Of a stretch of 38,706 bases of DNA, positions 3-38,706 are shown piece after piece; positions within the stretch are counted from its first letter, which is position 1; each line of letters opens with the position of its first letter. The position numbers and the translations under genes were made by a program. The stretch comes from Arenicellales bacterium (lineage in GTDB: Bacteria; Pseudomonadota; Gammaproteobacteria; Arenicellales; UBA868): assembly GCA_050302555.1 (NCBI GenBank), contig JBMUHF010000035.1, forward strand, positions 1 through 38,706, read 5' to 3'. Below the pieces are notes generated by a model, which did not search any database, had not been told where the DNA came from, and was given only the letters and a program-made list of their open reading frames with translations.

Positions 3-806
3 TCATCAAAACCCTGGCTCCTGATTATAGGAATTACCTCGAGCGTTATCCTCTGGTATGGCCTCGTCCAATGGACACCGTTTACTTCATTCAACCGCTT
101 ACCTGATCCGTTATCTGTAATCCTCGAGTGGACTTCTACCGACCCTGACTACGGTCTATCAATATTCACCAAAGACTACTACCTGCATATTCTTTACAGC
201 ACCTATCGGGCAACCGTGGCTTTCGCGCTCGCCGTCATTCTAGGGGTGCCACTCGGAATCATGATGGGCTGGCGGGCCAACTTCAACGCCTACGCCGGAG
301 CACTTCTTGACTTTCTGCGACCAATCCCGCCTCTGGCATGGGTCCCCATCGCTATCCTGATCCTTCCAGGAGATGAACCAGCAGTTATCTTCGTCACCTT
401 CCTCGTGGCGTTTTTTGCCACGACCCTGAACACGCTTTTAGGTGTTCGATCGATCGACCCAGATTTTTTTCGGGCGGCTGAGTGTCTTGGCGCGAATGCC
501 CGGGATGTTTTGCGGGATGTTATCGTCCCCGGCGCTCTACCTACCATCTTTACCGGATTGCAGATCGCGATGGGCGCCGCCTGGTTTTCTCTTGTTGCAG
601 GAGAAATGATCGCGGCCCAGTACGGTCTTGGTTTTATGATCCTCGAGTCATACAACCTAGTGCAATACCCCACGATCGTCATCATGATGGCGACCCTTGG
701 AATTGTCGGTTACTTCAGTAGCGCCATGATTCGACTCGTGGGAAAGAAAATGACTCGCTGGCGGGAACAGGCGACCGGGATGGGACTAGAGGCAAAAGCG
801 CAATGA
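3..806 (+). CDS. NitT/TauT (SsuC/TauC-like) ABC transporter permease 1, 5'-truncated by the window edge
   Basis: Frame is open from position 3 (SSKPWLLIIG...LPDPLSVILEW...YRATVAFALAVILG), so the track start at 216 is internal. Contains LRPIPPLAWVP, an EAA-like loop (RAAECLGA) and LVAGEMI. Confidence 0.9.
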   Translation, partial: SSKPWLLIIGITSSVILWYGLVQWTPFTSFNRLPDPLSVILEWTSTDPDYGLSIFTKDYYLHILYSTYRATVAFALAVILGVPLGIMMGWRANFNAYAGALLDFLRPIPPLAWVPIAILILPGDEPAVIFVTFLVAFFATTLNTLLGVRSIDPDFFRAAECLGANARDVLRDVIVPGALPTIFTGLQIAMGAAWFSLVAGEMIAAQYGLGFMILESYNLVQYPTIVIMMATLGIVGYFSSAMIRLVGKKMTRWREQATGMGLEAKAQ

Positions 807-1630
807 GTGAAGCCGGATCCATTTCAGTCTCTAACGTTCGAAAAATCTACGATCCAGAAGGTGCTTCAGTGCACGCGCTAGAAGACTGTTCCTGCGAGAT
901 TCCTTCGGGGAAATTTATCGCCATGGTCGGGCCTTCGGGATGCGGTAAAAGCACCCTGCTCAACATGATTGCGGGTTTCGACACGCCCACCGATGGGGAT
1001 ATCCGGCTAGATGGTCAACTATTGGTCAATTCATCTACCCAGACCCCGCCAAACTCAGACCGTGTCGTGGTCTTTCAGAATGGCGCCCTTTTCCCTTGGA
1101 AAACCGTGTTAGAAAATATTGCTTACGGACCTATCGTCCAGAAAACACGAAGTCGCGAACAAGCAGAACAGGAGGCGTTGGAACTCCTCCGAAAAGCGGG
1201 AGGTCTCGAACGAATCGCCGGCGCCTTCCCCAACCAGATCTCATCAGGCATGCAACGACGGGTAGAGATTCTTCGTGCGCTGATCAACCAGCCAAAGGTA
1301 CTCCTACTTGATGAGCCGTTTAGAGCGATGGATACCGTGTCGAAATCAAAGATGCATCAGCATCTACTCGACATCCACTACAAGTTCAAACCGTCCATAC
1401 TGCTGATTACCCACGATCTTGTCGAAGCCATTCTGCTCGCAGATGTTGTTCTGGTCATGACGACCCGACCGGGGACAATAAAGGTCAACATTAACATTAA
1501 CCTGCCCCGTCCTCGATCAAGAGACATGATTCTCTCGGAGGAATTTACAGAACTCCAAAAACAAGCGATCTCTGCCGTGCATGAAGAGGCTCGTAAGGCA
1601 TTCGAGCGCGGTGAGAAGGAGTTGGCTTGA
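803..1630 (+). CDS. NitT/TauT ABC transporter ATP-binding protein 1
   Basis: Walker A GPSGCGKS, Q-loop VVFQ, atypical signature ISSGMQRR, Walker B LLLDEP, H-loop ITHD, C-terminal LPRPR. ATGA overlap with the upstream permease. Confidence 0.93.
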   Translation: MSEAGSISVSNVRKIYDPEGASVHALEDCSCEIPSGKFIAMVGPSGCGKSTLLNMIAGFDTPTDGDIRLDGQLLVNSSTQTPPNSDRVVVFQNGALFPWKTVLENIAYGPIVQKTRSREQAEQEALELLRKAGGLERIAGAFPNQISSGMQRRVEILRALINQPKVLLLDEPFRAMDTVSKSKMHQHLLDIHYKFKPSILLITHDLVEAILLADVVLVMTTRPGTIKVNININLPRPRSRDMILSEEFTELQKQAISAVHEEARKAFERGEKELA

Positions 1631-1634
1631 GCCA

Positions 1635-2408
1635 ATGCTGAAGCAGCTTCAATCCTCTCTGAACTGGCGTGGCTTCGTCGCCATCTTTGGGTTTTTTCTG
1701 AGCTGGTATCTAGCCTGTATTTTGGAACTACCAGGGTTTGCCGAAATGGCAAATCCACTGGAAGTGATCCAGATGTTTGTACGGGAATATGCGCGCGACG
1801 ATCACTACTGGCTTTCATGGATCACGAGTTTCCAGCGGGTACTTTATGGCTTTCTCTTTGCGCAACTGTTCGGCATCCCACTAGGGCTCTTGTTCGGGAC
1901 TAATGAGAAATTCCGGAACCTGTTCTTCCCAGTGTTTGAATTGCTGCGGCCGATTCCACCATTGGCCTGGGTGCCGATGTCGATCCTGTTCTGGCCGACC
2001 AATGAATCCAGCATCATCTTCATTACCTTTATCGGAGCCTTCTTCATTATTGTTATTAATGTCTTTGATGGGGTTCGGGATATCAAACGAGAGCACCTCT
2101 GGCTGGCTCTGTCGCTTGGCGCACCCCGTCGAGTGATATTCCTGCGGATCATGCTCCCAAGTGTGATCCCCTCGATCGCTGTGGGGATGACACTTGGGAT
2201 TGCCATTACGTGGGATGTGGTGATCGCAGCAGAAATGATCGCTAGTGATAGTGGGTTGGGAAGACTCACCTGGGAAGGTTACGTAAGTAGTACGCCAGAA
2301 GTCCTGGTGATCGGCATGATCAGCATTGGTTTGGCCGGATATCTCTCTACCAAAATAGTCAACACAATTGAACGAAAGATGATGCCCTGGCGAAGAGTGG
2401 GGCGATGA
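1635..2408 (+). CDS. NitT/TauT ABC transporter permease 2
   Basis: LRPIPPLAWVP and VIAAEMIASDSGLG motifs plus hydrophobic helices. Start moved from 1581 to the ATG at 1635, just after the ATPase stop. Confidence 0.9.
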   Translation: MLKQLQSSLNWRGFVAIFGFFLSWYLACILELPGFAEMANPLEVIQMFVREYARDDHYWLSWITSFQRVLYGFLFAQLFGIPLGLLFGTNEKFRNLFFPVFELLRPIPPLAWVPMSILFWPTNESSIIFITFIGAFFIIVINVFDGVRDIKREHLWLALSLGAPRRVIFLRIMLPSVIPSIAVGMTLGIAITWDVVIAAEMIASDSGLGRLTWEGYVSSTPEVLVIGMISIGLAGYLSTKIVNTIERKMMPWRRVGR

Positions 2409-3211
2409 GCACATCTGCAAATCATTCGCCCACAAAAGGCGACTCCGGAATCTGGTTGGACAGCGTCAGTAAGAGCTTTTCCTCACCCGACGCTGGGTTA
2501 ATACCCGTATTTGAGAACCTCTCCGTTCAGTTTGAACCCAACCAATTGCACGTCGTTATGGGCGCTTCAGGCTGCGGGAAGTCGACATTGGGCTACCTGT
2601 TGGCCGGATTCATCCGGCCGGATCAAGGCAGCGTCGGCCTTGGCGACAAGCTAGTAAAAAATCCCGGTCCGGAAAGATTGCTGGTCTTTCAGGAAACGGC
2701 TCTCTGGCCCTGGATGACCGTGCTGGACAACGTCGTTTTTGGGCCGAAGGTCCGGGGTGACACTGATACCGCAAGCGCAAAAAGCGCAGCACAAGCACTG
2801 CTCATGAAATTCGGCTTGGCCGACTTTTCTGACAAGTATCCCGACCAGCTCTCAGGAGGAATGAAGCGGCGGGCAGAGATCGCGCAGGCGCTGATTAACC
2901 GGCCCGAGGTCATGATCCTCGACGAACCATTCCGTGGGCTGGATGTCATGACGCGGGAGATTCTTCAGGAGTACTACCTCGATCTCTTTGAGGAGACTCG
3001 ACAGACAACGGTATTTATAACCTCCGAACTCGAAGAAGCCCTGTTTCTCGCCGACAAGATCTACATCATGGGTGAGCAGCCAGCACGAATTCTTGACGTT
3101 ATTGACGTTGACCTGCCTCGGCCCCGCGACTTTGAGGTCACGGTGAGCAAAAAGTATCTCGAGTACAAAGAGCGGGCAATTAAACAGCTCTTTCAATCCG
3201 AGGAGTCATAG
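2405..3211 (+). CDS. NitT/TauT ABC transporter ATP-binding protein 2
   Basis: Walker A GASGCGKS, signature LSGGMKRR, Walker B MILDEP. H-loop His replaced (ITSE). LPRPR tail; ATGA overlap. Confidence 0.92.
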   Translation: MSTSANHSPTKGDSGIWLDSVSKSFSSPDAGLIPVFENLSVQFEPNQLHVVMGASGCGKSTLGYLLAGFIRPDQGSVGLGDKLVKNPGPERLLVFQETALWPWMTVLDNVVFGPKVRGDTDTASAKSAAQALLMKFGLADFSDKYPDQLSGGMKRRAEIAQALINRPEVMILDEPFRGLDVMTREILQEYYLDLFEETRQTTVFITSELEEALFLADKIYIMGEQPARILDVIDVDLPRPRDFEVTVSKKYLEYKERAIKQLFQSEES

Positions 3212-3253
3212 ATTTCGCATCAGAGCATGAGGTCAAAACTCTGAAATTACCTT

Positions 3254-3288
3254 AACCACCAACCATAAACCATGAACCATGAACAACG
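3254..3288 (+). repeat. Degenerate 7-bp tandem repeat x5 (AACCACC AACCATA AACCATG AACCATG AACAACG)
   Basis: Read directly; abuts the GGAGGAG ribosome-binding site of the binding-protein gene. Confidence 0.7.
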
Positions 3289-3301
3289 GAGGAGTACCAA
3301 A

Positions 3302-4390
3302 ATGAAGTTTCTAAAATTAGTTGCTGTAGTGTTGATCTTTGCGGCATCCGGCAAAGCGTGGTCTGCAGATGCTGTCGATATCACTTACGGATACCATCCC
3401 TATTGGACGGGTGGCTGGAACGGCGTGATTATCAAACATCTAAAGCTTCATGAAAAATACCTGCCGGCGGGTAGCAAGGTCAGATTTGAAGCTCACTTGA
3501 CCGGCCCCCCAATGGTTAACGCGCTGCTGGCTGACAAGATGCAGATCGGCACCATGGGTGATATGCCGTCCCTCGTGGCAACGACCAAAAGAAAGATCGC
3601 TGATGTCCGACTAGTCTCTACGCCAATGTTCAGTAACGGTCAGAACTGCAACAAGATCGTGGTACCAGTTGATGCTCCCGACTTTGCCAGTGTGGAAGAG
3701 GCTGGTGCCTGGCTCACCGGAAAACCCTTTGCTGTACACAGAGGTACCTGCGCTAACCGGTTCGTCGACTCCGTGATCATGAAAGGCGCCTTCACGCCCT
3801 CTGAGCGCTTGAGCATGACGATTGAGGTCATCACCAGTAATTTTGAAAGTGGCAAAATGAAAGGGGGAGCCGCGATGTGGGAGCCTCATGCGCGACGGGT
3901 GGTCGAACTGGGTCACGCTAAGTACGTTGCCACGGGTGCGCCGTGGGGAGAGACGGATGCCGACTTCACGCTCATGCGCCAAGATTTCATCGAGAACCAT
4001 CCAGAGGCCGCTGTTGGCTGGATGAAGGCAGAGATCGAGGCAATGCAGTTCATGATCAACAATCCCGAACAGACAGTAGAAATTCTCTACGAGGAATTGA
4101 CCGGTTACCCCAAGTCCACCATTTGGTCCGCAATTTACGAAGAGAACCCTGTCTCAATCGGAGGAGACCCTGTCACCTATCAGGCAAAGATGGTGTTTGA
4201 CAGCGATGTCATCACCTTGGCCAAGAATGGGTACGCATTTCTGCATCAGTTAAAGGTCCTCAAATCGCCCAACCCTCCTGAGAACTTCTACAATGACGGT
4301 CCACTACAGACTGCCCTGTCGGAGATGAATCTGAAAGCGCCGATTGGAGACATCATCGGTAAGCCGCGGTCGACGCGTCCGTACGACTAA
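3302..4390 (+). CDS. ABC transporter substrate-binding protein (SsuA/TauA/NMT1-like)
   Basis: GGAGGAG RBS before ATG 3302, signal peptide MKFLKLVAVVLIFAASGKAWSA, motifs GPPMVNALLA..QIGTMGDMP, WEP and FIENHPE. Last gene of the ABC operon. Confidence 0.88.
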   Translation: MKFLKLVAVVLIFAASGKAWSADAVDITYGYHPYWTGGWNGVIIKHLKLHEKYLPAGSKVRFEAHLTGPPMVNALLADKMQIGTMGDMPSLVATTKRKIADVRLVSTPMFSNGQNCNKIVVPVDAPDFASVEEAGAWLTGKPFAVHRGTCANRFVDSVIMKGAFTPSERLSMTIEVITSNFESGKMKGGAAMWEPHARRVVELGHAKYVATGAPWGETDADFTLMRQDFIENHPEAAVGWMKAEIEAMQFMINNPEQTVEILYEELTGYPKSTIWSAIYEENPVSIGGDPVTYQAKMVFDSDVITLAKNGYAFLHQLKVLKSPNPPENFYNDGPLQTALSEMNLKAPIGDIIGKPRSTRPYD

Positions 4391-4410: not shown

Positions 4411-4435
4411 AGGGCGCCCCTTGGGCGCCCTTTTT
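4411..4435 (+). terminator. Intrinsic terminator AGGGCGCCC-ctt-GGGCGCCCT-TTTT
   Basis: 9-bp GC-rich stem followed by a T run, between convergent genes. Confidence 0.8.
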
Positions 4436-4940
4436 ATTGGCGCACGAGATCTAAATCAACAGATACCGGATTTCGCAAATCGTCGAGAACGGGGCAATGC
4501 TGATTAACCGCCTCCCGGAGACGTTCCAGCTCCTGATCACTAGCTGAGGTTTGGACTTTAATTTCGCCGGTGATGTGTGAAAACCCGGCACGCACCGAAT
4601 CGTCCATTCCGAAAAATCCTCTCGCGTCGGAGTGGCCCGTCAAACTGACAGATACCTCGTCCAGAGGAATCCCTAACGCATCGGCGTAGAGACGATAGGT
4701 AACCTCATGGCATGCCGCCAAAGCGGCCAGTACATATTCACTGGGCCGGGGCCCCTGATCCGTGCCGCCCATCCCTTTGTTCTGATCCACCACAATATCA
4801 AAACCACGCGCTTTCACCCGACTCATAAAGCCGTCCACCAGTTGACTATCAGCCTTTACCTTGACGGAGCACTTATCAGGATTTGCCGACAGAATCTCCC
4901 TTTTTTGGTCCCAGATCTCTTTGAAGTCTTTGGTGGTCAT
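4434..4940 (-). CDS. OsmC/Ohr-family protein
   Basis: DQxxxMGGTDQGPRPSEYVLAALAAC and ..HCPVLD, i.e. the two conserved OsmC cysteines. ATG at 4940 (MTTKDFKE) preferred over the track start at 5006. Confidence 0.88.
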   Translation of the reverse strand: MTTKDFKEIWDQKREILSANPDKCSVKVKADSQLVDGFMSRVKARGFDIVVDQNKGMGGTDQGPRPSEYVLAALAACHEVTYRLYADALGIPLDEVSVSLTGHSDARGFFGMDDSVRAGFSHITGEIKVQTSASDQELERLREAVNQHCPVLDDLRNPVSVDLDLVRQ

Positions 4941-5128
4941 GGTTGGCCTATTCGAAACGGAAATTGAAGTGGCAGCGCGATCGGTAGCGAATTCCCCGTC
5001 TCGCAACTTTCAAACTGAATTGAGATGTCTAAATATACCCGGGCATTCAGGGCTCGTCCTCAACCCGATCTACCTTATCTCGGTCAGGATTGGAGTTACT
5101 AAAACGAGCACCATAGCAGCCGCAACGG

Positions 5129-5167
5129 GTGGGAAATTAGTGGGCCACTTGTGGGAAATAAGTGGGC
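5129..5167. promoter_or_regulatory. Candidate operator: four GTGGG boxes at 11-bp period (two copies of GTGGGAAATWAGTGGGC)
   Basis: GTGGG at 5129, 5140, 5151 and 5162; a further inverted GCCCAC at 5280-5285. Lies in the divergent osmC / HTH-fusion intergenic region. Confidence 0.65.
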
Positions 5168-5295
5168 GATATTCCTTTTTCTGGGATAATAATTGATAAC
5201 AGGATCCAAATCTCTCAAGAATATTACAAAAAGGTCTTTTAAATAACTAAAATACGTCCATTTTATTATTGAGAACACTGCCCACGTTTTGAGAA

Positions 5296-5349
5296 ACTTT
5301 TTTTATTTATAAAAAAAGTCTTTACAGGTCTCTTAATAGTCTCTAAGTT
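5296..5349 (+). promoter_or_regulatory. Putative sigma70 promoter (TTTACA-17-TAAGTT) with upstream A/T-tract palindrome
   Basis: -35-like at 5321-5326, -10-like at 5344-5349, 17-nt spacer. ACTTTTTTTAT-tt-ATAAAAAAAGT at 5296-5319 sits in the UP-element position. Confidence 0.45.
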
Positions 5350-5456
5350 GAGGTCTGCCCGCACGACCGAGATCGCCAGGCCTCGTAACGTTTTCAAAGG
5401 CTGGCCACGGGCGCCGATCGCAATCAGGAATTTTTCGTAAAGAGGTAGATGAACTA

Positions 5457-6977
5457 ATGCAAATACAAACAGTATCTGGGCCGCAGGACTCGATCCGCTC
5501 GTTATTAACGGATATCGAGAACTTTTGCCGCTCTTGCGACATGGCAGAGACCACATTCGGTCGCCAGGCGGTCAACGATGGCAAGCTGTGCCAGCGACTC
5601 CGCACTGGAAAAGGAATCACTATTAACACCGTTCATAAGATCCAGGAATTTATTCGCCAAAAGAGCGCCCTTTCCCATCCACTTTCCCTGACCCCCAATA
5701 GCTTACTAGCCTCCCCTAGCCAAGATACGTCCAATGGCGCGCTCCATGAACCGATCTCCTCACAAAAAGGCATAACCGCCGAGAAAGGGTCGCCTCCAAC
5801 CCGGCCTTTTCGCTTTTACGACAACCGGCAGAAATACCTCGGGTTTGTGAATACTTGTGATGAGAAATGGAAAGTCGCAGAACGTGCGGCGCATGAACTG
5901 TCTCATGTTCAGCCCGTACCTCCGGCGCTTCGTATCTTTGACGCAGGCGTGGGAGACGGCTCGGTGCTGAGTTATCTGCTACGCGCAACCCATCAAAAAT
6001 TCCCAACGATTCCATTTTTTGTCGTCGGCAAAGAGATCAGTCTAGAGGACGTGCGACTCTGTCTGGATAACCTACCCGACCGATTCGCTGAACACCCTGC
6101 GAGCGTCATCTGTATTACCAACCTTTTTTACAGTGAAGCGCCGTGGCTGATGCCCGGAAACATGGCCGCTGCAGCAGCGCTCAACTGGCACGAGATTTCC
6201 CTGCAGGGCGACTCCGCCCAGGAATACGGGGAGCAGTTAAAGGCTATCGACGACATTCTCGTGGATGGCTGGGAAGTCAAAGTCAGTGAGAAAACCGGAA
6301 ACCCTCGCTATGTCCGACCCTCGGTCCTGGTAATTTTCCGGGAAGACAATCGATTCCTCCTCGACTCTGTCATACCCCGCCGCGGGCAGGTGTCCGGTGA
6401 CTATGATCTGATACTGGCCGCTCAACCATGGCGCGCCCGGATGAGCGCGCAGTTCAAGGCTGAAAAAGTGCTTGCTCCACTGGTGCGAAGTCTCGGGCCA
6501 GGAGGCAGACTTCTGGCGGTCCAGTCTGCCGGAAACGACCCGGGCATGGAACTCGTCAACCTTGTCTGGCCTGACGAGAATCCGTTTGAGGTGAACCGGC
6601 ATGACCTTCTGAAAGCGCTCAAGGATAAGCTCGGCCGTGCCGGCTCGAATTACAACTTTAATGCCGGTTCCGACAACAAATCGATTATGAAATATGAGAT
6701 GAAAACGCTGCCCAATGAGATTGCCGACAGCATCGGCACGTCTACTCTTTTTGCAGCCTGGAACGCGTCGACCTATGTCGCGCAAATTGAAGACGATCGT
6801 CTACAGCCGGCTGTGGCTTCAGGCGCATACCTTGAAGCAACCGAGAAAGTACTGCAAAAGCACAATGGCATCTGGTTTAATGACGAAACCTTTGTGGTAT
6901 CCCGCAGACGTAATTCGATCGCTCACGGTAACTCGCATAGCCCCTCTACCGCCAGCTCCTTTTCTGCTGATAAATAG
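5457..6977 (+). CDS. Uncharacterised fusion: N-terminal Cro/XRE-like HTH + low-complexity linker + class I SAM-dependent methyltransferase fold
   Basis: N-terminus IENFCRSCDMAETTFGRQAVNDGKLCQRLRTGKGITINTVHKIQEFI resembles small phage-type HTH proteins. S/P-rich linker, then motif I LRIFDAGVGDG, beta2 VVGKEISLED, YDLILA and LVRSLGPGGRLL. AGAGG RBS. Confidence 0.75.
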   Translation: MQIQTVSGPQDSIRSLLTDIENFCRSCDMAETTFGRQAVNDGKLCQRLRTGKGITINTVHKIQEFIRQKSALSHPLSLTPNSLLASPSQDTSNGALHEPISSQKGITAEKGSPPTRPFRFYDNRQKYLGFVNTCDEKWKVAERAAHELSHVQPVPPALRIFDAGVGDGSVLSYLLRATHQKFPTIPFFVVGKEISLEDVRLCLDNLPDRFAEHPASVICITNLFYSEAPWLMPGNMAAAAALNWHEISLQGDSAQEYGEQLKAIDDILVDGWEVKVSEKTGNPRYVRPSVLVIFREDNRFLLDSVIPRRGQVSGDYDLILAAQPWRARMSAQFKAEKVLAPLVRSLGPGGRLLAVQSAGNDPGMELVNLVWPDENPFEVNRHDLLKALKDKLGRAGSNYNFNAGSDNKSIMKYEMKTLPNEIADSIGTSTLFAAWNASTYVAQIEDDRLQPAVASGAYLEATEKVLQKHNGIWFNDETFVVSRRRNSIAHGNSHSPSTASSFSADK

Positions 6978-7001: not shown

Positions 7002-8213
7002 ATGAAAGAGCATTATTACTTTGACAACGCGGCAACGACACTGCCGAAACCAGAACCGGTATACCAGTTCATGGATCAGTTCTTCCGTAGTCACGGAGTG
7101 AACCCTGGCCGCTCAGGGCATGAACTGGCTGTCGAAGCTGAAACGATGATCGTTCAAACCCGGCGAATGCTGGCGGAGTTTTTCGGATTTTCGGGTGACC
7201 CGGGCCGGGTAACGTTTTCCCAAAACGCGACCGACTCCATGAACGCGGCGCTATCGGGGATGCTGAACCCTGGCGACCACATGATCATTACGCGGATGGA
7301 GCATAACTGCGTTCTGCGCCCGGCCAATCACTTTGAACGGGATCATGATGTCTCGGTCACACGTATCAGCGCAGACGCTAAAGGATTTATCGATCCGGAC
7401 GAGATCGCCAAGAGCATTCAGCCCAATACCCGCGTTGTTGTTGTCAACCATGCTTCCAATGTAACGGGCTCACTTCAGGACGCAGCGACAATTGGCAAAC
7501 TGGTGAAAGAAACCGACGCGACCTTCGTCCTCGACTCGTGCCAAACCGCAGGCGTGGTCCCTATTGCCATGGACGACTGGGGTGTGGATGTACTGGTCTA
7601 TACCGGACACAAGGGTCTTTTCGGGCCTATGGGTATCGGCGGCATGCTGGTAGCGGAAGGCGTTGATATCCGCCCGCCGCGCACAGGAGGTACCGGCGTG
7701 AATTCAATCTCCCCTTTCCAGCCTGACGAGTATCCCTACCGGATGGAGACCGGCACCCACTGCCTGCCAGGCATCGCTGGACTGAATGCCGCGCAGAAGT
7801 GGTTTGCCGAACTAGGTCGGAGCCACGGCGCGGATCCAGACAGCACCCATGGACAAGCCTGCGCAACTGCGCTGGCCCATATCCACGAGCAGGAACTCAG
7901 CGCAACCCAGCATCTGCTCAATGCCTTTGACAGCATCGACGGGGTCAAACTCTATGGCCCCGAGATTGGGCAACCGCGGGTTTCAACCCTATCAATCAAT
8001 ATCAGGGATCTTCCTGCAGACCAGGTCGGCGCCATGCTGGATGCCGATCATGCAGTCTGTGTCAGACCGGGTTTGCACTGCGCACCGGATGTTCACGAAC
8101 TGCTTGGCACCGTTCCCCAGAATGGCACCGTGCGCTTTGCCTCGGGATACTTCACTGATGACGAAGACCTGAATCAAGCTGTCGAAGCTGTCCGGGATCT
8201 TGCCGAAAACTAA
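7002..8213 (+). CDS. Cysteine desulfurase / selenocysteine lyase family protein (aminotransferase class V, PLP)
   Basis: YFDNAATT, NPGRSGH, MEHN, NHASNVTG, PLP lysine in TGHKGLFGP, ETGT and catalytic-Cys loop RPGLHCAP. Confidence 0.88.
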   Translation: MKEHYYFDNAATTLPKPEPVYQFMDQFFRSHGVNPGRSGHELAVEAETMIVQTRRMLAEFFGFSGDPGRVTFSQNATDSMNAALSGMLNPGDHMIITRMEHNCVLRPANHFERDHDVSVTRISADAKGFIDPDEIAKSIQPNTRVVVVNHASNVTGSLQDAATIGKLVKETDATFVLDSCQTAGVVPIAMDDWGVDVLVYTGHKGLFGPMGIGGMLVAEGVDIRPPRTGGTGVNSISPFQPDEYPYRMETGTHCLPGIAGLNAAQKWFAELGRSHGADPDSTHGQACATALAHIHEQELSATQHLLNAFDSIDGVKLYGPEIGQPRVSTLSINIRDLPADQVGAMLDADHAVCVRPGLHCAPDVHELLGTVPQNGTVRFASGYFTDDEDLNQAVEAVRDLAEN

Positions 8214-8243: not shown

Positions 8244-9632
8244 ATGAAAGCTGTAGAAAGCGTGATTGACTTAGTTGGCGGAACTCCGCTTGTCCGACTC
8301 AATAATATTGTTGAACCTGACATGGCGACCGTCTATGCCAAAATGGAAAACCTTAATCCATCGGGCTCTGTCAAAGACCGGATGGCAATAAACATGGTAA
8401 AGCGGGCTGAGGAGGCGGGCCTGCTCAAACCGGGCGGCACCATTGTCGAGAGCACCTCGGGCAATACCGGGCTTGGGCTGGCGATGGCTGCAGCGGTCCG
8501 TGGATACCGTTGCGTCTTCACGATCCCGGACAAGATGAGTCAGGAAAAAATTGACATGCTGAAGTCCTACGGGGCCGAGGTGATCGTCACAGCGACTGAC
8601 CTTGATCATCATCATCCAGACAGCTACGTCGAAGTCGCTAAGCGGGTCGCCCGGGAAACGCCTGGGTCCTTCTACACTGACCAGTACTCTAATCCCCATA
8701 ACCCAGAGGCCCACTACCTTACTACCGGCCCCGAAATCTGGGAGGCCACCGACGGCAAGATCGACTCCTTTGTGGCGGGACTCGGCACAGGTGGAACGAT
8801 CTCGGGCACGGGGAAGTATCTCAAAGAAAAAGCAGCTGAAGCCGGACGGCCGGTGAGGGTTGTAGGGCCTGACCCCCACGGTAGCATCTATAAAGAAGCC
8901 CACGAGAAAGGTGAATGGAGTACGCCATCGCTCTATCGCGTCGAGGGGATCGGTCACGACTTCATGGTGGATACGCTGGATTTTTCCGTGGTCGATGAAG
9001 TGGTGAATGTCTCGGACCGCGACTCTTTTCTGATGGCGCGGCGTTTGGCTCGTCGGGAAGGCATTCTCTCTGGCGGGTCGACGGGAACAGTATTCTTTGG
9101 TGCCCTGCAGGAGGCAAAGAAACTGGGGCCCGGCAAAATCGTCGTTGCAATCGTCTGTGACTCAGGTGATCGCTATATCAGTAAATGCTTTAACGACGAA
9201 TGGATGCGCGACATGGGATATTTTTCCCCGGATAGCCATCTTGGCACCGTCCAGCAGTTACTGGATGTCCGCAATCAAGACGTAGCCTTTGCCAAACCTG
9301 AAGAATCCCTGCGGGAGGTAATCGCAAAAATGGCGGCGACCGGCATCTCTCAGATGCCGGTGGACTCCGGCCAGGGAGATCTTCGCATGATTGAAGAGCT
9401 CGACATTCTACGGGCGGTGGCCAGTGACGAATACGGCCTTGGGGACAGTGTGCGAGATATCGCGCGACCGCTTGAGGGGCGAATCAGTTCTAAAGATAAT
9501 CTCAGCCACGTACAGCAGATCTTTGAACAGAACAATGTCGCCGTTGTGGTGGACGAAGGTCGCGTTCTAGGGATCATTAACAAGATCGATCTGCTTGAAT
9601 TCATCAACAACCACAATCGTCAGGCAGCCTGA
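8244..9632 (+). CDS. cbs: Cystathionine beta-synthase with C-terminal CBS (Bateman) pair
   Basis: NPSGSVKDR (PLP Lys), ESTSGNTG, IPDKMSQEK, DQYSNPHNP, GLGTGGT, YRVEGIG, CDSGDRYISK..NDEWM, then ~130 aa of CBS domains (GISQMPV; VLGIINKIDLL). No N-terminal heme domain. Confidence 0.9.
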   Translation: MKAVESVIDLVGGTPLVRLNNIVEPDMATVYAKMENLNPSGSVKDRMAINMVKRAEEAGLLKPGGTIVESTSGNTGLGLAMAAAVRGYRCVFTIPDKMSQEKIDMLKSYGAEVIVTATDLDHHHPDSYVEVAKRVARETPGSFYTDQYSNPHNPEAHYLTTGPEIWEATDGKIDSFVAGLGTGGTISGTGKYLKEKAAEAGRPVRVVGPDPHGSIYKEAHEKGEWSTPSLYRVEGIGHDFMVDTLDFSVVDEVVNVSDRDSFLMARRLARREGILSGGSTGTVFFGALQEAKKLGPGKIVVAIVCDSGDRYISKCFNDEWMRDMGYFSPDSHLGTVQQLLDVRNQDVAFAKPEESLREVIAKMAATGISQMPVDSGQGDLRMIEELDILRAVASDEYGLGDSVRDIARPLEGRISSKDNLSHVQQIFEQNNVAVVVDEGRVLGIINKIDLLEFINNHNRQAA

Positions 9633-9670: not shown

Positions 9671-10813
9671 TTGAAATTTGATACCAAGGTAGTCCGCGCC
9701 GGCATCAGTCCCGACCCCACCACAGGCTCGATACTGCCGCCGATCTATGAAACCGCCACCTTTGTACTGCCGGAGGTCGGGCGCGACTTGGGCTTTGATT
9801 ACACACGGTCCTCGAATCCCACTCGACAGGTGCTCGAGGACAACCTCGCCGCGATTGATAACGGTCAGTACGCCGTCAGCTTCGCGAGCGGTATGTCAGC
9901 CGTGGATTCGTGCTTTAAGCTCCTGACCGCCGGGGATCATATTGTCTGTGGTGATGATGTTTATGGCGGAGTGACGCGCCTGCTGGATAACGTCACTGTG
10001 CAGCAGGGTATTGATGTCAGTTACGTTGATACCACAAACGCAGATGCCGTACGGAGCGTCATCACCCCCAAGACACGAATGCTCTGGATTGAGACCCCAA
10101 CCAATCCGCTGTTGAAGGTGAGTGACCTTGAGGAAATGGTTAAGATCGCGCGCGAGAACGATATCCTGCTGGGTGTGGATTCCACATTTGCGACACCAGT
10201 CTTCCTTCGGCCTCTGGAGTTCGGCGCCGATATTGTGATGCACAGCACCACCAAGTATCTTGCCGGGCACAACCAGATTATCGGCGGCGTGATCGTCACC
10301 AATCACCAGCATGTGTTTGAAAAGATGAAGTACATCCAGAAGACCATCGGCGCGGTGTCGAGCCCTTTTGACTGCTGGCTAAACCTCAGTGGCCTCAAGA
10401 CGCTGCACCTGCGCATGAAGCGCCACGAAGAATCGGCCATGGCGGTTGCCGAGTTTCTGGAAGGCCATAACAAGATTGATCGCGTGCTCTATCCCGGCTT
10501 GGCCTCCCATCCACAACATGCTATCGCCAAGGCGCAGATGTCGGGCTTCAGCGGTATGATTGCTTTTGAACTGACGGGCGGCACAGAAGCCGGCAAGCGC
10601 CTCATGAACAATGTTCAGTTATGCGGACTCGCGGAAAGCCTCGGCAGCGTCGAGACTATGATCACGCATCCGGCCAGCATGACGCACGTTGACGTACCCG
10701 TAGAAGACCGGCGCAAACGGGGCTTAACGGACGGTCTCGTTCGGCTCTCTGTCGGTATCGAAGACGTTGACGACATAATCGGTGATCTGGAATCCGCGCT
10801 GGAAACAGCCTGA
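9671..10813 (+). CDS. Cystathionine gamma-lyase/gamma-synthase (Cys/Met metabolism PLP enzyme)
   Basis: DYTRSSNPTR, FASGMSA, DDVYGG, IETPTNP, HSTTKYLAGH (PLP Lys), AESLG, HPASMTH, LVRLSVGIED. TTG start with GGAG RBS. Adjacency to cbs favours gamma-lyase. Confidence 0.9.
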   Translation: MKFDTKVVRAGISPDPTTGSILPPIYETATFVLPEVGRDLGFDYTRSSNPTRQVLEDNLAAIDNGQYAVSFASGMSAVDSCFKLLTAGDHIVCGDDVYGGVTRLLDNVTVQQGIDVSYVDTTNADAVRSVITPKTRMLWIETPTNPLLKVSDLEEMVKIARENDILLGVDSTFATPVFLRPLEFGADIVMHSTTKYLAGHNQIIGGVIVTNHQHVFEKMKYIQKTIGAVSSPFDCWLNLSGLKTLHLRMKRHEESAMAVAEFLEGHNKIDRVLYPGLASHPQHAIAKAQMSGFSGMIAFELTGGTEAGKRLMNNVQLCGLAESLGSVETMITHPASMTHVDVPVEDRRKRGLTDGLVRLSVGIEDVDDIIGDLESALETA

Positions 10814-37367: not shown

Positions 37368-38706
37368 ATGGTGGATTCCCTTCCAGATACAGATCTTGAC
37401 CCGCTTGAGACTCAGGAATGGCAGGACGCCTTAAGCGCGGTTATCGAACGTGAAGGCCAGGAGCGTGCTCACTTTCTCCTTGAGACCCTGATCGATCAGG
37501 CCCGGCGCAGCGGCACTCACATTCCCTTTCGACCGACGACGGCATATCTCAATACCATCCCCGCGGCCAGTCAGGCCACCAGTCCCGGGGATCCCGCAAT
37601 CGAATGGCGGATCCGCTCTCTGATACGCTGGAATGCACTCGCCATGGTGATGCGGGCTAATCAGACCAGCAGTGAACTGGGTGGACACATCGCAAGTTTC
37701 GCGTCGGCCGCCACACTGTACGATGTGGGCTTCAACCATTTCTGGCGTGGTCCGGAGACTGAACACGGAGCGGATCTTGTCTTCTTCCAAGGGCACTCGG
37801 CGCCGGGAGTATATGCCCGCGCTTTCCTCGAGGGCCGTTTGACCGAGGGGCAACTCGAAGGCTTCAGGCAGGAGGTCGAAGGCAAAGGTCTTTCCTCCTA
37901 TCCCCATCCCTGGCTAATGCCCGATTTCTGGCAGTTCCCCACCGTGTCGATGGGTCTTGGACCAATACAAGCGGTTTACCAGGCGCGCTTCATGCGCTAC
38001 CTGCAAAATCGCGAGTTCACTCCCCACTCGGACCGTAAAGTCTGGGCCTTTATGGGTGACGGTGAAATGGACGAGCCTGAGTCGACAGGGGCGTTGGGCC
38101 TCGCCGGACGGGAACGCCTTGATAACCTGGTCTTTGTCATTAACTGTAATTTGCAACGGCTCGATGGGCCGGTGCGGGGCAATGGCAAAATCATTCAGGA
38201 ACTGGAAGGCACCTTCCGGGGCGCAGGATGGAATGTCATCAAACTGGTCTGGGGCTCGTACTGGGACAAACTTCTGGCACGGGATACCCAAGGACTGCTG
38301 AAACAGCGGATGGAAGAAGCCCTGGATGGTGAATACCAGGCCTTCAAGAGCAAGGACGGCGCTTTTGTCCGGGAACATTTTTTTGGAAAATATCCGGAAC
38401 TTGCGGCAATGGTAGCCAATATGACCGATGAAGATATCTGGCGGCTAAACCGGGGTGGCCATGATCCGCACAAGGTCTATGCGGCTTACGCTCAAGCTGC
38501 CGCGCACCGGGGCCAACCGACGGTGATACTAGCCAAAACGGTCAAGGGATATGGCATGGGAGAATCCGGTGAAGGCCAGAACATCACCCACAGCCAGAAG
38601 AAGATCACGGACGAATCATTGCTGGAGTTTCGTGACCGATTCCGCATTCCCCTCGAAGACGAAGCTGTGCTCGCCTGTAAATTTTTTCACCCGGGTGATG
38701 ACAGCC
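37368..38706 (+). CDS. aceE: Pyruvate dehydrogenase E1 component (homodimeric type), 3'-truncated; absent from the ORF track
   Basis: Hand translation: MVDSLPDTDLDPLETQEWQDAL...IRWNALAMV...LGGHIASFAS...FQGHSAPG...SSYPHPWLMPDFWQFPTVSMGLG, TPP motif GDGEMDEPE...NCNLQRLDGPV, RGGHDP, AKTVKGYG. The last codons (RDRFRIPL...) are in the same frame. Alternative in-frame ATG at 37344. Confidence 0.97.
   Translation, partial: MVDSLPDTDLDPLETQEWQDALSAVIEREGQERAHFLLETLIDQARRSGTHIPFRPTTAYLNTIPAASQATSPGDPAIEWRIRSLIRWNALAMVMRANQTSSELGGHIASFASAATLYDVGFNHFWRGPETEHGADLVFFQGHSAPGVYARAFLEGRLTEGQLEGFRQEVEGKGLSSYPHPWLMPDFWQFPTVSMGLGPIQAVYQARFMRYLQNREFTPHSDRKVWAFMGDGEMDEPESTGALGLAGRERLDNLVFVINCNLQRLDGPVRGNGKIIQELEGTFRGAGWNVIKLVWGSYWDKLLARDTQGLLKQRMEEALDGEYQAFKSKDGAFVREHFFGKYPELAAMVANMTDEDIWRLNRGGHDPHKVYAAYAQAAAHRGQPTVILAKTVKGYGMGESGEGQNITHSQKKITDESLLEFRDRFRIPLEDEAVLACKFFHPGDDS

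What the first reader, a model, noticed from the sequence alone, without database searches (positions are those of the whole stretch)
5457..6977. Cro-like HTH fused to a SAM-methyltransferase fold: possible new SAM/SAH-sensing regulator
Seen: a ~65-aa helical domain (AETTFGRQAVNDGKLCQRLRTG), a ~50-aa S/P-rich linker and a class I MTase fold (DAGVGDG, acidic beta2 end, LGPGG), encoded first in an operon with CBS and gamma-lyase. Known: SahR/SamR regulators pair an ArsR HTH with an MTase-like domain to sense SAH/SAM in methionine-cycle control. Inference: an independent solution using a different HTH family, gating transsulfuration on methylation potential; alternatively a DNA-tethered active methyltransferase. 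I recall similar hypothetical proteins beside isocitrate lyase in some alphaproteobacteria, but cannot verify that here.
Basis: partly seen in the sequence, partly recalled or inferred. Interest (0 to 1): 0.8.

Follow-up and report, generated by a model that had tools for sequence, protein, structure and literature searches.

The report
Phage-derived regulator of methyl-cycle genes
This unannotated but widespread bacterial protein joins a DNA-binding head related to prophage Cro proteins to a predicted methyltransferase-fold body; its relatives travel with one short DNA palindrome in front of methionine and S-adenosylmethionine (SAM) genes, so it is likely an undescribed regulator that likely reads the cell's methyl-donor level, including in bacteria such as Bradyrhizobium where no such regulator was listed.

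Summary
The 506-aa gene is real: a four-helix head, a disordered linker and a class I methyltransferase fold (Z 17), with no Pfam or NCBIfam match and at least 7,999 relative clusters. A palindrome, TGGG-N6-CCCA, lies upstream of 25 of 31 head-bearing relatives against 1 of 52 head-less ones (8 of 12 in held-out loci). It also appears in trans: before sahR-metF in 9 of 12 genomes with the fusion against 0 of 37 others, before all 12 sahR-less metF loci of the Bradyrhizobium-type family, and before metK, metY and methionine gamma-lyase in the host's kin. Stand-alone copies of the head are prophage cro genes facing cI across the same operators. So this is likely a SahR-analogous, independently built methyl-cycle regulator. 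Ligand, sign of control and catalysis are untested. Head-less forms are equally conserved, so the body may also be an enzyme. In this window the operators are degenerate, a cysteine desulfurase-like gene precedes CBS, and the transsulfuration operon is lineage-specific. The scan met this family before on other DNA; the trans regulon and prophage link were tested here.

The parts
5457..6977 (+). Gene for the 506-aa Cro-head / methyltransferase-fold protein
   Evidence: no Pfam or NCBIfam hit
5481..5672 (+). Four-helix lambda-repressor-class head (residues 9-72), homologous to prophage Cro proteins
   Evidence: fold, weak scores; PHROG 7669 E 1.4e-5; stand-alone homologues in cro position
5673..5801 (+). 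Variable disordered linker
   Evidence: pLDDT below 50 for residues 74-122; not conserved
5802..6911 (+). Class I SAM-methyltransferase-fold body (residues 116-485); motif I at 5940-5960, acidic E193 at 6033-6035; predicted homodimer
5129..5176 (.). Four TGGG half-sites at 11-bp spacing (5130, 5141, 5152, 5163), the last forming a degenerate operator TGGG-CGATAT-TCCT
   Evidence: the only three-TGGG 11-bp array in the genome; an exact site lies at this position in some kin
5271..5285 (.). Second degenerate operator (right arm TGCCCAC intact)
   Evidence: TGCCCA invariant in 9 aligned kin; exact site at this position in L010-L012
5321..5349 (+). Likely sigma-70 promoter, TTTACA-17 bp-TAAGTT (inferred)
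   Evidence: conserved in the kin alignment; below the threshold of the promoter scan
7002..8213 (+). Cysteine-desulfurase-like class V PLP enzyme, second gene of the operon
   Evidence: RNA-library contigs of relatives bridge the junction
8244..9632 (+). Cystathionine beta-synthase with C-terminal CBS domains
9671..10813 (+). Cys/Met PLP lyase, likely cystathionine gamma-lyase
   Evidence: assignment inferred from linkage to CBS
4434..5006 (-). Divergent OsmC-like gene sharing the operator region (true start probably near 4940); in kin it heads a CoA-binding protein-metY-Fe-ADH run

Best explanation
The protein is likely a dimeric transcription factor whose Cro-type heads likely bind TGGG-N6-CCCA operators and whose methyltransferase-fold bodies likely sense SAM (or the SAM/SAH balance), thereby likely controlling methionine/SAM-cycle genes. 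Shown here: the two-domain build; the operator travelling with the head; the operator in front of distant metK, metF, sahR-metF, metY and methionine gamma-lyase genes; and the same head and operator in prophage cI/cro switches. Predicted: dimerisation through the body. Inferred: with SAM plentiful it represses supply genes (at sahR-metF the site lies between the SahR box and the coding region in 7 of 9 cases), while in this genome it lets the disposal route run (desulfurase, CBS, lyase; also methionine gamma-lyase) from sites upstream of the -35 box. The sign of control is the weakest step.
For: Operator in cis: 25/31 fused against 1/52 head-less, other spacers at most 1 (discovery set); 8/12 in held-out fusions; at least 6 supported gains or losses of the head on the tree, with the site following. 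The lone head-less gene with a site (L043, before metK) is in a genome that also has a fused copy. In trans: sahR-metF 9/12 genomes with the fusion against 0/33 without the family, 0/3 head-less, 0/1 frameshifted; 12/12 sahR-less metF loci in family f56, all in genomes with the fusion; metK 15/25 in four genera that have the gene against 0/5 in two genera where it was not found; metY 10/16 and methionine gamma-lyase 9/18 with conserved arms and variable spacer. Prophage cro homologues with three such sites between cro and cI in G582 and G677. No full-length SahR in G000, G401, G284, G056. Invariant motif I and acidic strand-2 end. Homodimer score 0.81, best control 0.00; the mark was reached by 20/30 known pairs and 1/23 single chains; runs agree in at least 86% of contacts; pLDDT at least 88.
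Against: No ligand or DNA binding was measured; SAM was not scored. The window's own promoter has no exact site (best 3.4 bits) and its metK site has one mismatch. The core is not enriched genome-wide (37 against 21-47 for other spacers). 6/31 and 4/12 fused genes lack an exact site. G616 has a site before one metF but no family member was found. G464 has a metK site with no gene found (91% complete). In most genomes a strict pattern finds few sites, no more than the reversed control. Kin are not independent: the 12 metF loci may be one or two events, and 8 of the 9 sahR sites are from one family. Fold scores for the head alone are weak (best Z 7.3). Head-less forms keep the same conserved body and neighbours, so the body has a job without DNA.
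Confidence: 0.68

Rival explanations
1. The body is primarily an active small-molecule methyltransferase that burns SAM to SAH (a methyl sink feeding homocysteine to CBS). The head is an add-on that couples enzyme state to transcription (a trigger enzyme). This is not exclusive with the best explanation.
For: 107 body columns are at least 95% conserved across fused and head-less forms. Head-less genes lack the operator yet sit in runs with MTHFR-like, PfkB, metK and ahcY genes (17/51). The best fold matches are N-, O- and S-methyltransferases of small molecules. Methyltransferase + CBS + gamma-lyase operons serve methionine-to-cysteine conversion in Bacillus and Clostridium (PMC2566862, passages).
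Against: Many invariant residues fall in the predicted dimer interface, so conservation need not mean catalysis. No substrate gene is a constant neighbour. It does not by itself explain the sites in trans.
Confidence: 0.2
2. It is a transcription factor for these genes, but the effector is not SAM/SAH (for example methyl-tetrahydrofolate, homocysteine, methionine or a methylated substrate), or the body signals through a partner protein such as the adjacent type-4-like MTHFR.
For: A type-4-like MTHFR (7xg9, E 2.8e-35) is the commonest direct neighbour (18/84). The regulator coexists with SahR on the same promoters, which suggests a different signal from SAH.
Against: Motif I and the acidic residue are invariant. 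The host genome has no such MTHFR hit (90% complete). Coexistence with SahR is also explained by sensing SAM.
Confidence: 0.08
3. Only local autoregulation: the sites before distant genes are chance matches, RNA hairpins or sites for another protein.
For: The core is an inverted repeat and is not enriched genome-wide. Counterexamples G616 and G464.
Against: 9/12 against 0/37 at sahR-metF; 15/25 against 0/5 at metK; arms conserved while spacers vary; fixed 6-bp spacer.
Confidence: 0.03
4. A DNA-tethered DNA or RNA methyltransferase.
For: A DNA-binding head on a methyltransferase fold; a few RNA methyltransferases are among lower fold hits.
Against: The top fold matches are small-molecule enzymes. 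No restriction or defence neighbours among the recurrent clusters. The sites behave as promoter operators.
Confidence: 0.01

Closest known systems
SahR / SamR (ArsR-family SAH- or SAM-responsive regulators; PMC4239095 passages and Table S1 rows; PMC8877191 passages)
   Same: DNA-binding head on a class I methyltransferase-like body (SahR's domain layout is recalled; profile overlap); palindromic operator; targets metK, metF, metH, ahcY and itself.
   Different: The head is all-helical lambda-repressor class, not ArsR. The body is about 370 aa and only marginally similar (hhalign probability 48%, 39 columns). The operator is TGGG-N6-CCCA, not the ATAA-N8-TTAT box seen before sahR. It occurs with SahR in some genomes and without it in others. 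Head-less forms are common.
Prophage cI/Cro switch (lambda-type)
   Same: Stand-alone homologues of the head lie divergent from HTH_3 + S24 cI genes, with three TGGG-N6-CCCA-type sites between them (G582, G677); 12 of 16 stand-alone heads have a divergent cI-like gene.
   Different: Here the head is fused to a metabolic sensor body, there is no cI and no phage context, and the operators are in front of host metabolic genes.
Bacillus subtilis yrrT-mtnN-mccAB and Clostridium acetobutylicum ubiG-mccBA operons (PMC2566862 passages)
   Same: A putative SAM-dependent methyltransferase leads an operon with CBS and cystathionine gamma-lyase for methionine-to-cysteine conversion.
   Different: Those are controlled by CymR or by T-box/S-box RNA. 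Here no riboswitch was found, the methyltransferase-fold protein carries its own DNA-binding head, and a desulfurase-like gene is inserted. Homology to YrrT/UbiG was not tested.
Small-molecule class I methyltransferases (histamine N-methyltransferase, TmtA, SABATH-type enzymes)
   Same: Fold, Z 16-17 over 248-279 residues.
   Different: 8-12% identity; no sequence-level relative among solved structures; substrate unknown.

Membership tests
SahR/SamR | ArsR-family winged HTH at the N-terminus | tested here: not met
   No ArsR Pfam hit for the protein or 24 heads; the head model has four helices and no strands.
SahR/SamR | C-terminal class I methyltransferase-like fold | tested here: met
SahR/SamR | Sequence homology to SahR over its length (SamR is about 30% identical, PMC4239095) | tested here: not met
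   hhalign probability 48% over 39 columns; a SahR query finds only partial matches in G000, none at this gene.
SahR/SamR | SahR-type 20-bp palindrome as operator | tested here: not met
   The strict TAAAG-N4-CTTTA pattern derived from sahR promoters has no match in the window; the family's own motif differs.
SahR/SamR | Core regulon of SAM-cycle genes plus itself | tested here: met
   Predicted sites before itself, metK, metF(-metH) and sahR-metF; ahcY follows metK in G000.
SahR/SamR | SAH (or SAM) switches DNA binding | not testable with these tools
   Needs ITC and EMSA.
Cro / XRE (lambda-repressor-like) HTH | Lambda-repressor-class helical fold | tested here: inconclusive
   Most top hits are of this class (HipB, C proteins, lambda cI Z 6.6, POU), but best Z is 7.3 and no Foldseek E is below 0.001; no Pfam HTH cut-off reached.
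Cro / XRE (lambda-repressor-like) HTH | Homologues are small genes divergent from cI across tandem palindromic operators | tested here: met
Class I SAM-dependent methyltransferase (enzyme) | Motif I glycine loop and acidic residue after strand 2 | tested here: met
   D-A-G-x-G-D and K-E-I-S invariant or nearly so.
Class I SAM-dependent methyltransferase (enzyme) | Methyl transfer to a substrate | not testable with these tools
   No assay; substrate unknown.
yrrT/ubiG-mccAB methionine-to-cysteine operon | Methyltransferase-fold gene linked with CBS and gamma-lyase | tested here: met
   lyase identity inferred.
yrrT/ubiG-mccAB methionine-to-cysteine operon | Homology of the lead gene to YrrT/UbiG | not tested
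   No YrrT or UbiG sequence was fetched.

The most novel reading that the evidence does not exclude
A prophage Cro gene was domesticated together with its operator by fusion to a SAM-consuming methyltransferase. The result is a still-catalytic trigger enzyme that took over the methyl cycle: it replaced SahR in the Bradyrhizobium lineage, shares promoters with SahR elsewhere, and in these marine gammaproteobacteria shuts methionine supply and opens transsulfuration when SAM is high, a transcription-level counterpart of SAM inhibiting MTHFR and activating CBS in eukaryotes (that comparison is recalled).
Probability: 0.3. Interest if true: 0.88.

Novelty: new variant of a known kind. Interest (0 to 1): 0.76.

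Why it matters
The published survey of proteobacterial methionine regulation lists no MetJ, MetR, SahR or SamR for Bradyrhizobium japonicum USDA 110, BTAi1, Rhodopseudomonas palustris or Nitrobacter (PMC4239095 Table S1 rows). This family gives a named candidate (Bll5946), a defined operator and defined targets, so the gap is testable at once in a tractable soybean symbiont. It would be a second, independent route to an HTH plus methyltransferase-fold sensor. It would be a clear case of a phage Cro protein and operator serving host metabolism. It also assigns a role to thousands of 'hypothetical' proteins, and the head-less members pose a separate question about an unknown, highly conserved methyl-cycle enzyme.

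Tried and rejected
Pfam and NCBIfam gave nothing for the protein; profile searches of solved-structure sequences gave only chance hits. The Atlas search could be run only with the homologue Bll5946 and returned unnamed clusters, plus one weak CheR-family lead at 0.82 that I did not pursue. Isocitrate lyase linkage: 0 of 180 loci (flanks 1.5-6 kb, so wider linkage is not excluded). Riboswitch: none in the window or at the two target loci. The promoter scan missed the kin-conserved promoter. The 0-site result for sahR-containing metF loci is not a fair control, because the scanned DNA there is sahR coding sequence; one search is the fair control. Genome-wide counts of the motif are not above control. 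No site above 8 bits was found before the three MTHFR or four homocysteine-methyltransferase-domain genes of G000. The careful tree did not finish; the quick tree is unrooted, so the direction phage-to-host and gain versus loss of the head are not established. RNA-library contigs show presence only; lack of cover at 4972-5419 proves nothing. A search for shorter proteins and the representative search (4,638 hits) returned mostly short proteins, which may be fragments, and were not analysed further. Literature: no paper held bll5946, Q89HP4 or RPA4017 (the last tag was my guess from memory); searches (listings only) showed no description of the family. The library lacks most subscription papers, and supplements other than those of PMC4239095 were not searched.

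Full report
Observation. The gene at 5457-6977 encodes 506 residues with no Pfam or NCBIfam match. It has at least 7,999 relative clusters among 8,000 candidates scored, the best 120 being 60-94% identical. Databases call members hypothetical or, automatically, SAM-dependent methyltransferase; one is Bll5946 of Bradyrhizobium diazoefficiens. Residues about 15-66 and 116-483 are conserved and the linker is not. The model shows a helical head, a disordered linker and a class I methyltransferase fold (Z 17.4, rmsd 4.3, 279 residues). The closest named relatives are marine MAGs labelled Arenicellales or Acidiferrobacteraceae. Contigs from RNA libraries of 90-99% alike relatives bridge all three junctions, which does not prove one transcript.

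Distribution and neighbours. Matches were found in 18 of 401 genomes of the phylum, 32 of 151 of the order and 21 of 27 other genomes of the family, and 33 of 46 of family f56, whose proteins cluster with named Bradyrhizobium and Tardiphaga records; one genome each has the head only. Of 159 loci, 88 were fused, 70 head-less and 1 had no body. In 84 dereplicated loci, 20 of 33 fused and 17 of 51 head-less had a methyl- or sulfur-cycle neighbour: a type-4-like MTHFR (7xg9, E 2.8e-35; type 4 enzymes oxidise methyl-THF, PMC11868366 passages), metK, ahcY, PfkB kinase, MetE-like, FTHFS or metY. CBS was adjacent in 4 of 33 fused loci. The transsulfuration operon is therefore a local arrangement.

Operator in cis. 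From 144 loci with enough upstream DNA (14 dropped as truncated), dereplicated at 92%, TGGG-N6-CCCA lies within 400 nt of 25 of 31 fused and 1 of 52 head-less genes; other spacers gave at most 1. This set defined the motif. In 30 fresh loci from 351 alphaproteobacterial genomes, 8 of 12 new fusions had the exact site; I left out one repeat (L326) and one internally deleted gene (L342, which has the site). The quick tree needs 9 changes of head status, 6 forced by well-supported branches, and the site follows the head. The one head-less gene with a site precedes metK in a genome that also encodes a fused copy. In this window the sites are degenerate: four TGGG at 11-bp spacing ending in TGGG-CGATAT-TCCT (5163-5176) and a right half-site at 5279-5285, upstream of a kin-conserved TTTACA-17-TAAGTT promoter. 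Five half-sites in 5007-5456 exceed all 2,000 shuffles (mean 0.48), though 29 of 10,762 genome windows reach five; 14 of 24 close-kin promoters hold an exact site.

Operator in trans. In the host genome, two of the four best intergenic matches precede methionine gamma-lyase (best models, gene cut by the contig end) and metY (TIGR01326 above cut-off). Exact sites recur in 9 of 18 and 10 of 16 orthologous promoters, with conserved arms and variable spacers, mostly in one subclade (1 of 19 and 11 of 27 loci left out as edge-cut, broken or paralogous). Before metK the exact site occurs in 15 of 25 loci from the four genera that have the gene, with 7 more one-mismatch sites including G000, and in 0 of 5 loci from two genera where it was not found. 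In family f56, all 12 of 30 metF loci lacking an upstream sahR carry the exact site, and all 12 genomes encode the fusion. Two such complete genomes, the host and a complete relative lack full-length SahR. Before sahR-metF operons the site occurs in 9 of 12 genomes with the fusion and in 0 of 33 without the family, 0 of 3 head-less and 0 of 1 frameshifted; in 7 of 9 it lies downstream of the SahR box. Against this: G616 and G464 have a site with no gene found, motif counts are not enriched genome-wide, and relatives are not independent.

Origin of the head. Folded alone (pLDDT 90.7, four helices), it matches mostly lambda-repressor-class domains, with weak scores. It hits PHROG 7669 and small hypothetical phage proteins at 39% identity. 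In G582 and G677 the stand-alone homologue sits divergent from a cI-like gene (HTH_3 + S24 confirmed for G582), with three operator-type sites between them; one G677 site is near consensus. Of 16 further stand-alone heads, 12 face a cI-like gene. The two that keep the NDGK(L/F) helix have strong sites (14 and 19 bits); three diverged ones show a TAGG-type variant, and the rest weak or no sites. The operator thus belongs to this head family. The direction of transfer is not established.

The body. Motif I and the acidic strand-2 end are invariant, and 107 columns are at least 95% conserved in fused and head-less forms alike. A homodimer of residues 112-486 scored 0.81 against a best control of 0.00; that mark was reached by 20 of 30 solved pairs and 1 of 23 single chains, the runs share at least 86% of contacts, and pLDDT is at least 88. 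This supports binding but does not show it, and SAM was not scored. Many conserved residues line that interface. Because head-less forms persist in methyl-cycle operons without operators, the body must do something unaided, most simply catalysis. Methyltransferase-CBS-lyase operons for methionine-to-cysteine conversion are known in Firmicutes (PMC2566862 passages), and a bacterial CBS activated by SAM is known (PMC9232105, abstract only).

Mechanism. Most likely (0.68) the dimer binds the palindrome through two Cro-type heads and reads SAM or the SAM/SAH ratio through the body. It is inferred to repress supply genes when SAM is ample and, in this lineage, to favour disposal through desulfurase, CBS, lyase and methionine gamma-lyase. 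Ligand, sign and catalysis are untested. The main rival (0.2, compatible) is an active methyl-sink enzyme with a regulatory head.

Comparison and novelty. It works like SahR/SamR but fails membership on head type, sequence and operator. The 2014 survey lists none of the four known regulators for two Bradyrhizobium strains, R. palustris and Nitrobacter (PMC4239095 passages and Table S1 rows); SahR's role in rhizobia is described in PMC8877191 (passages). Searches found no description of this family in the held library. Earlier AI notes of this scan met the family on other genomes and suggested an operator and the MTHFR link; I retested both, and one note's doubt about control of metK is answered in part. 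Verdict: new variant of a known kind, interest 0.76.

Noticed in passing
window 216-4390: An ABC importer with two permeases, two ATPases and an SsuA/NMT1-like binding protein lies beyond the OsmC-like gene; in several kin it is replaced by the CoA-binding protein-metY-Fe-ADH run. It may import an organosulfur compound (inferred).
   Followed up: partly
G000:C255:459-3587: The CoA-binding protein-metY-Fe-ADH run that adjoins the regulator in kin is on another contig in this genome and keeps a one-mismatch operator upstream.
   Followed up: partly
L003:8963-12819 and L016:8954-12816: Two kin insert an AMP-dependent ligase, a MetE-like methionine synthase and an acyl-CoA dehydrogenase between the desulfurase-like gene and CBS.
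   Followed up: no
L342 (G1017:C1 near 82000): The head is joined directly to the last residues of the body, right before ahcY, with an exact operator: an internal deletion or an assembly artefact.
   Followed up: no
L325 (G684:C5): Head and body are in different, overlapping frames (frameshift in the linker) with two operators upstream.
   Followed up: no
L345, L351, L352: Prophage Cro homologues with a changed recognition helix show TAGG-type variant sites, a possible specificity code.
   Followed up: partly
L018-L020, L023: In Woeseiaceae the head-less gene sits directly behind a TRAP transporter binding-protein gene, with no methyl-cycle neighbour found.
   Followed up: no
L323:5661-8580: The G582 prophage has a further strong operator beyond two genes that look like a DarT/DarG toxin-antitoxin pair (label recalled, not tested) downstream of cI.
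   Followed up: no
L231 and L234: Strict-pattern sites also precede an isocitrate-lyase/PEP-mutase-like gene (G447) and a binding-protein-like gene (G459); labels recalled from sequence, possibly chance.
   Followed up: no
window 37431-38378: The two minus-strand ORFs have no Pfam match; no clear gene was identified at the window's end.
   Followed up: no
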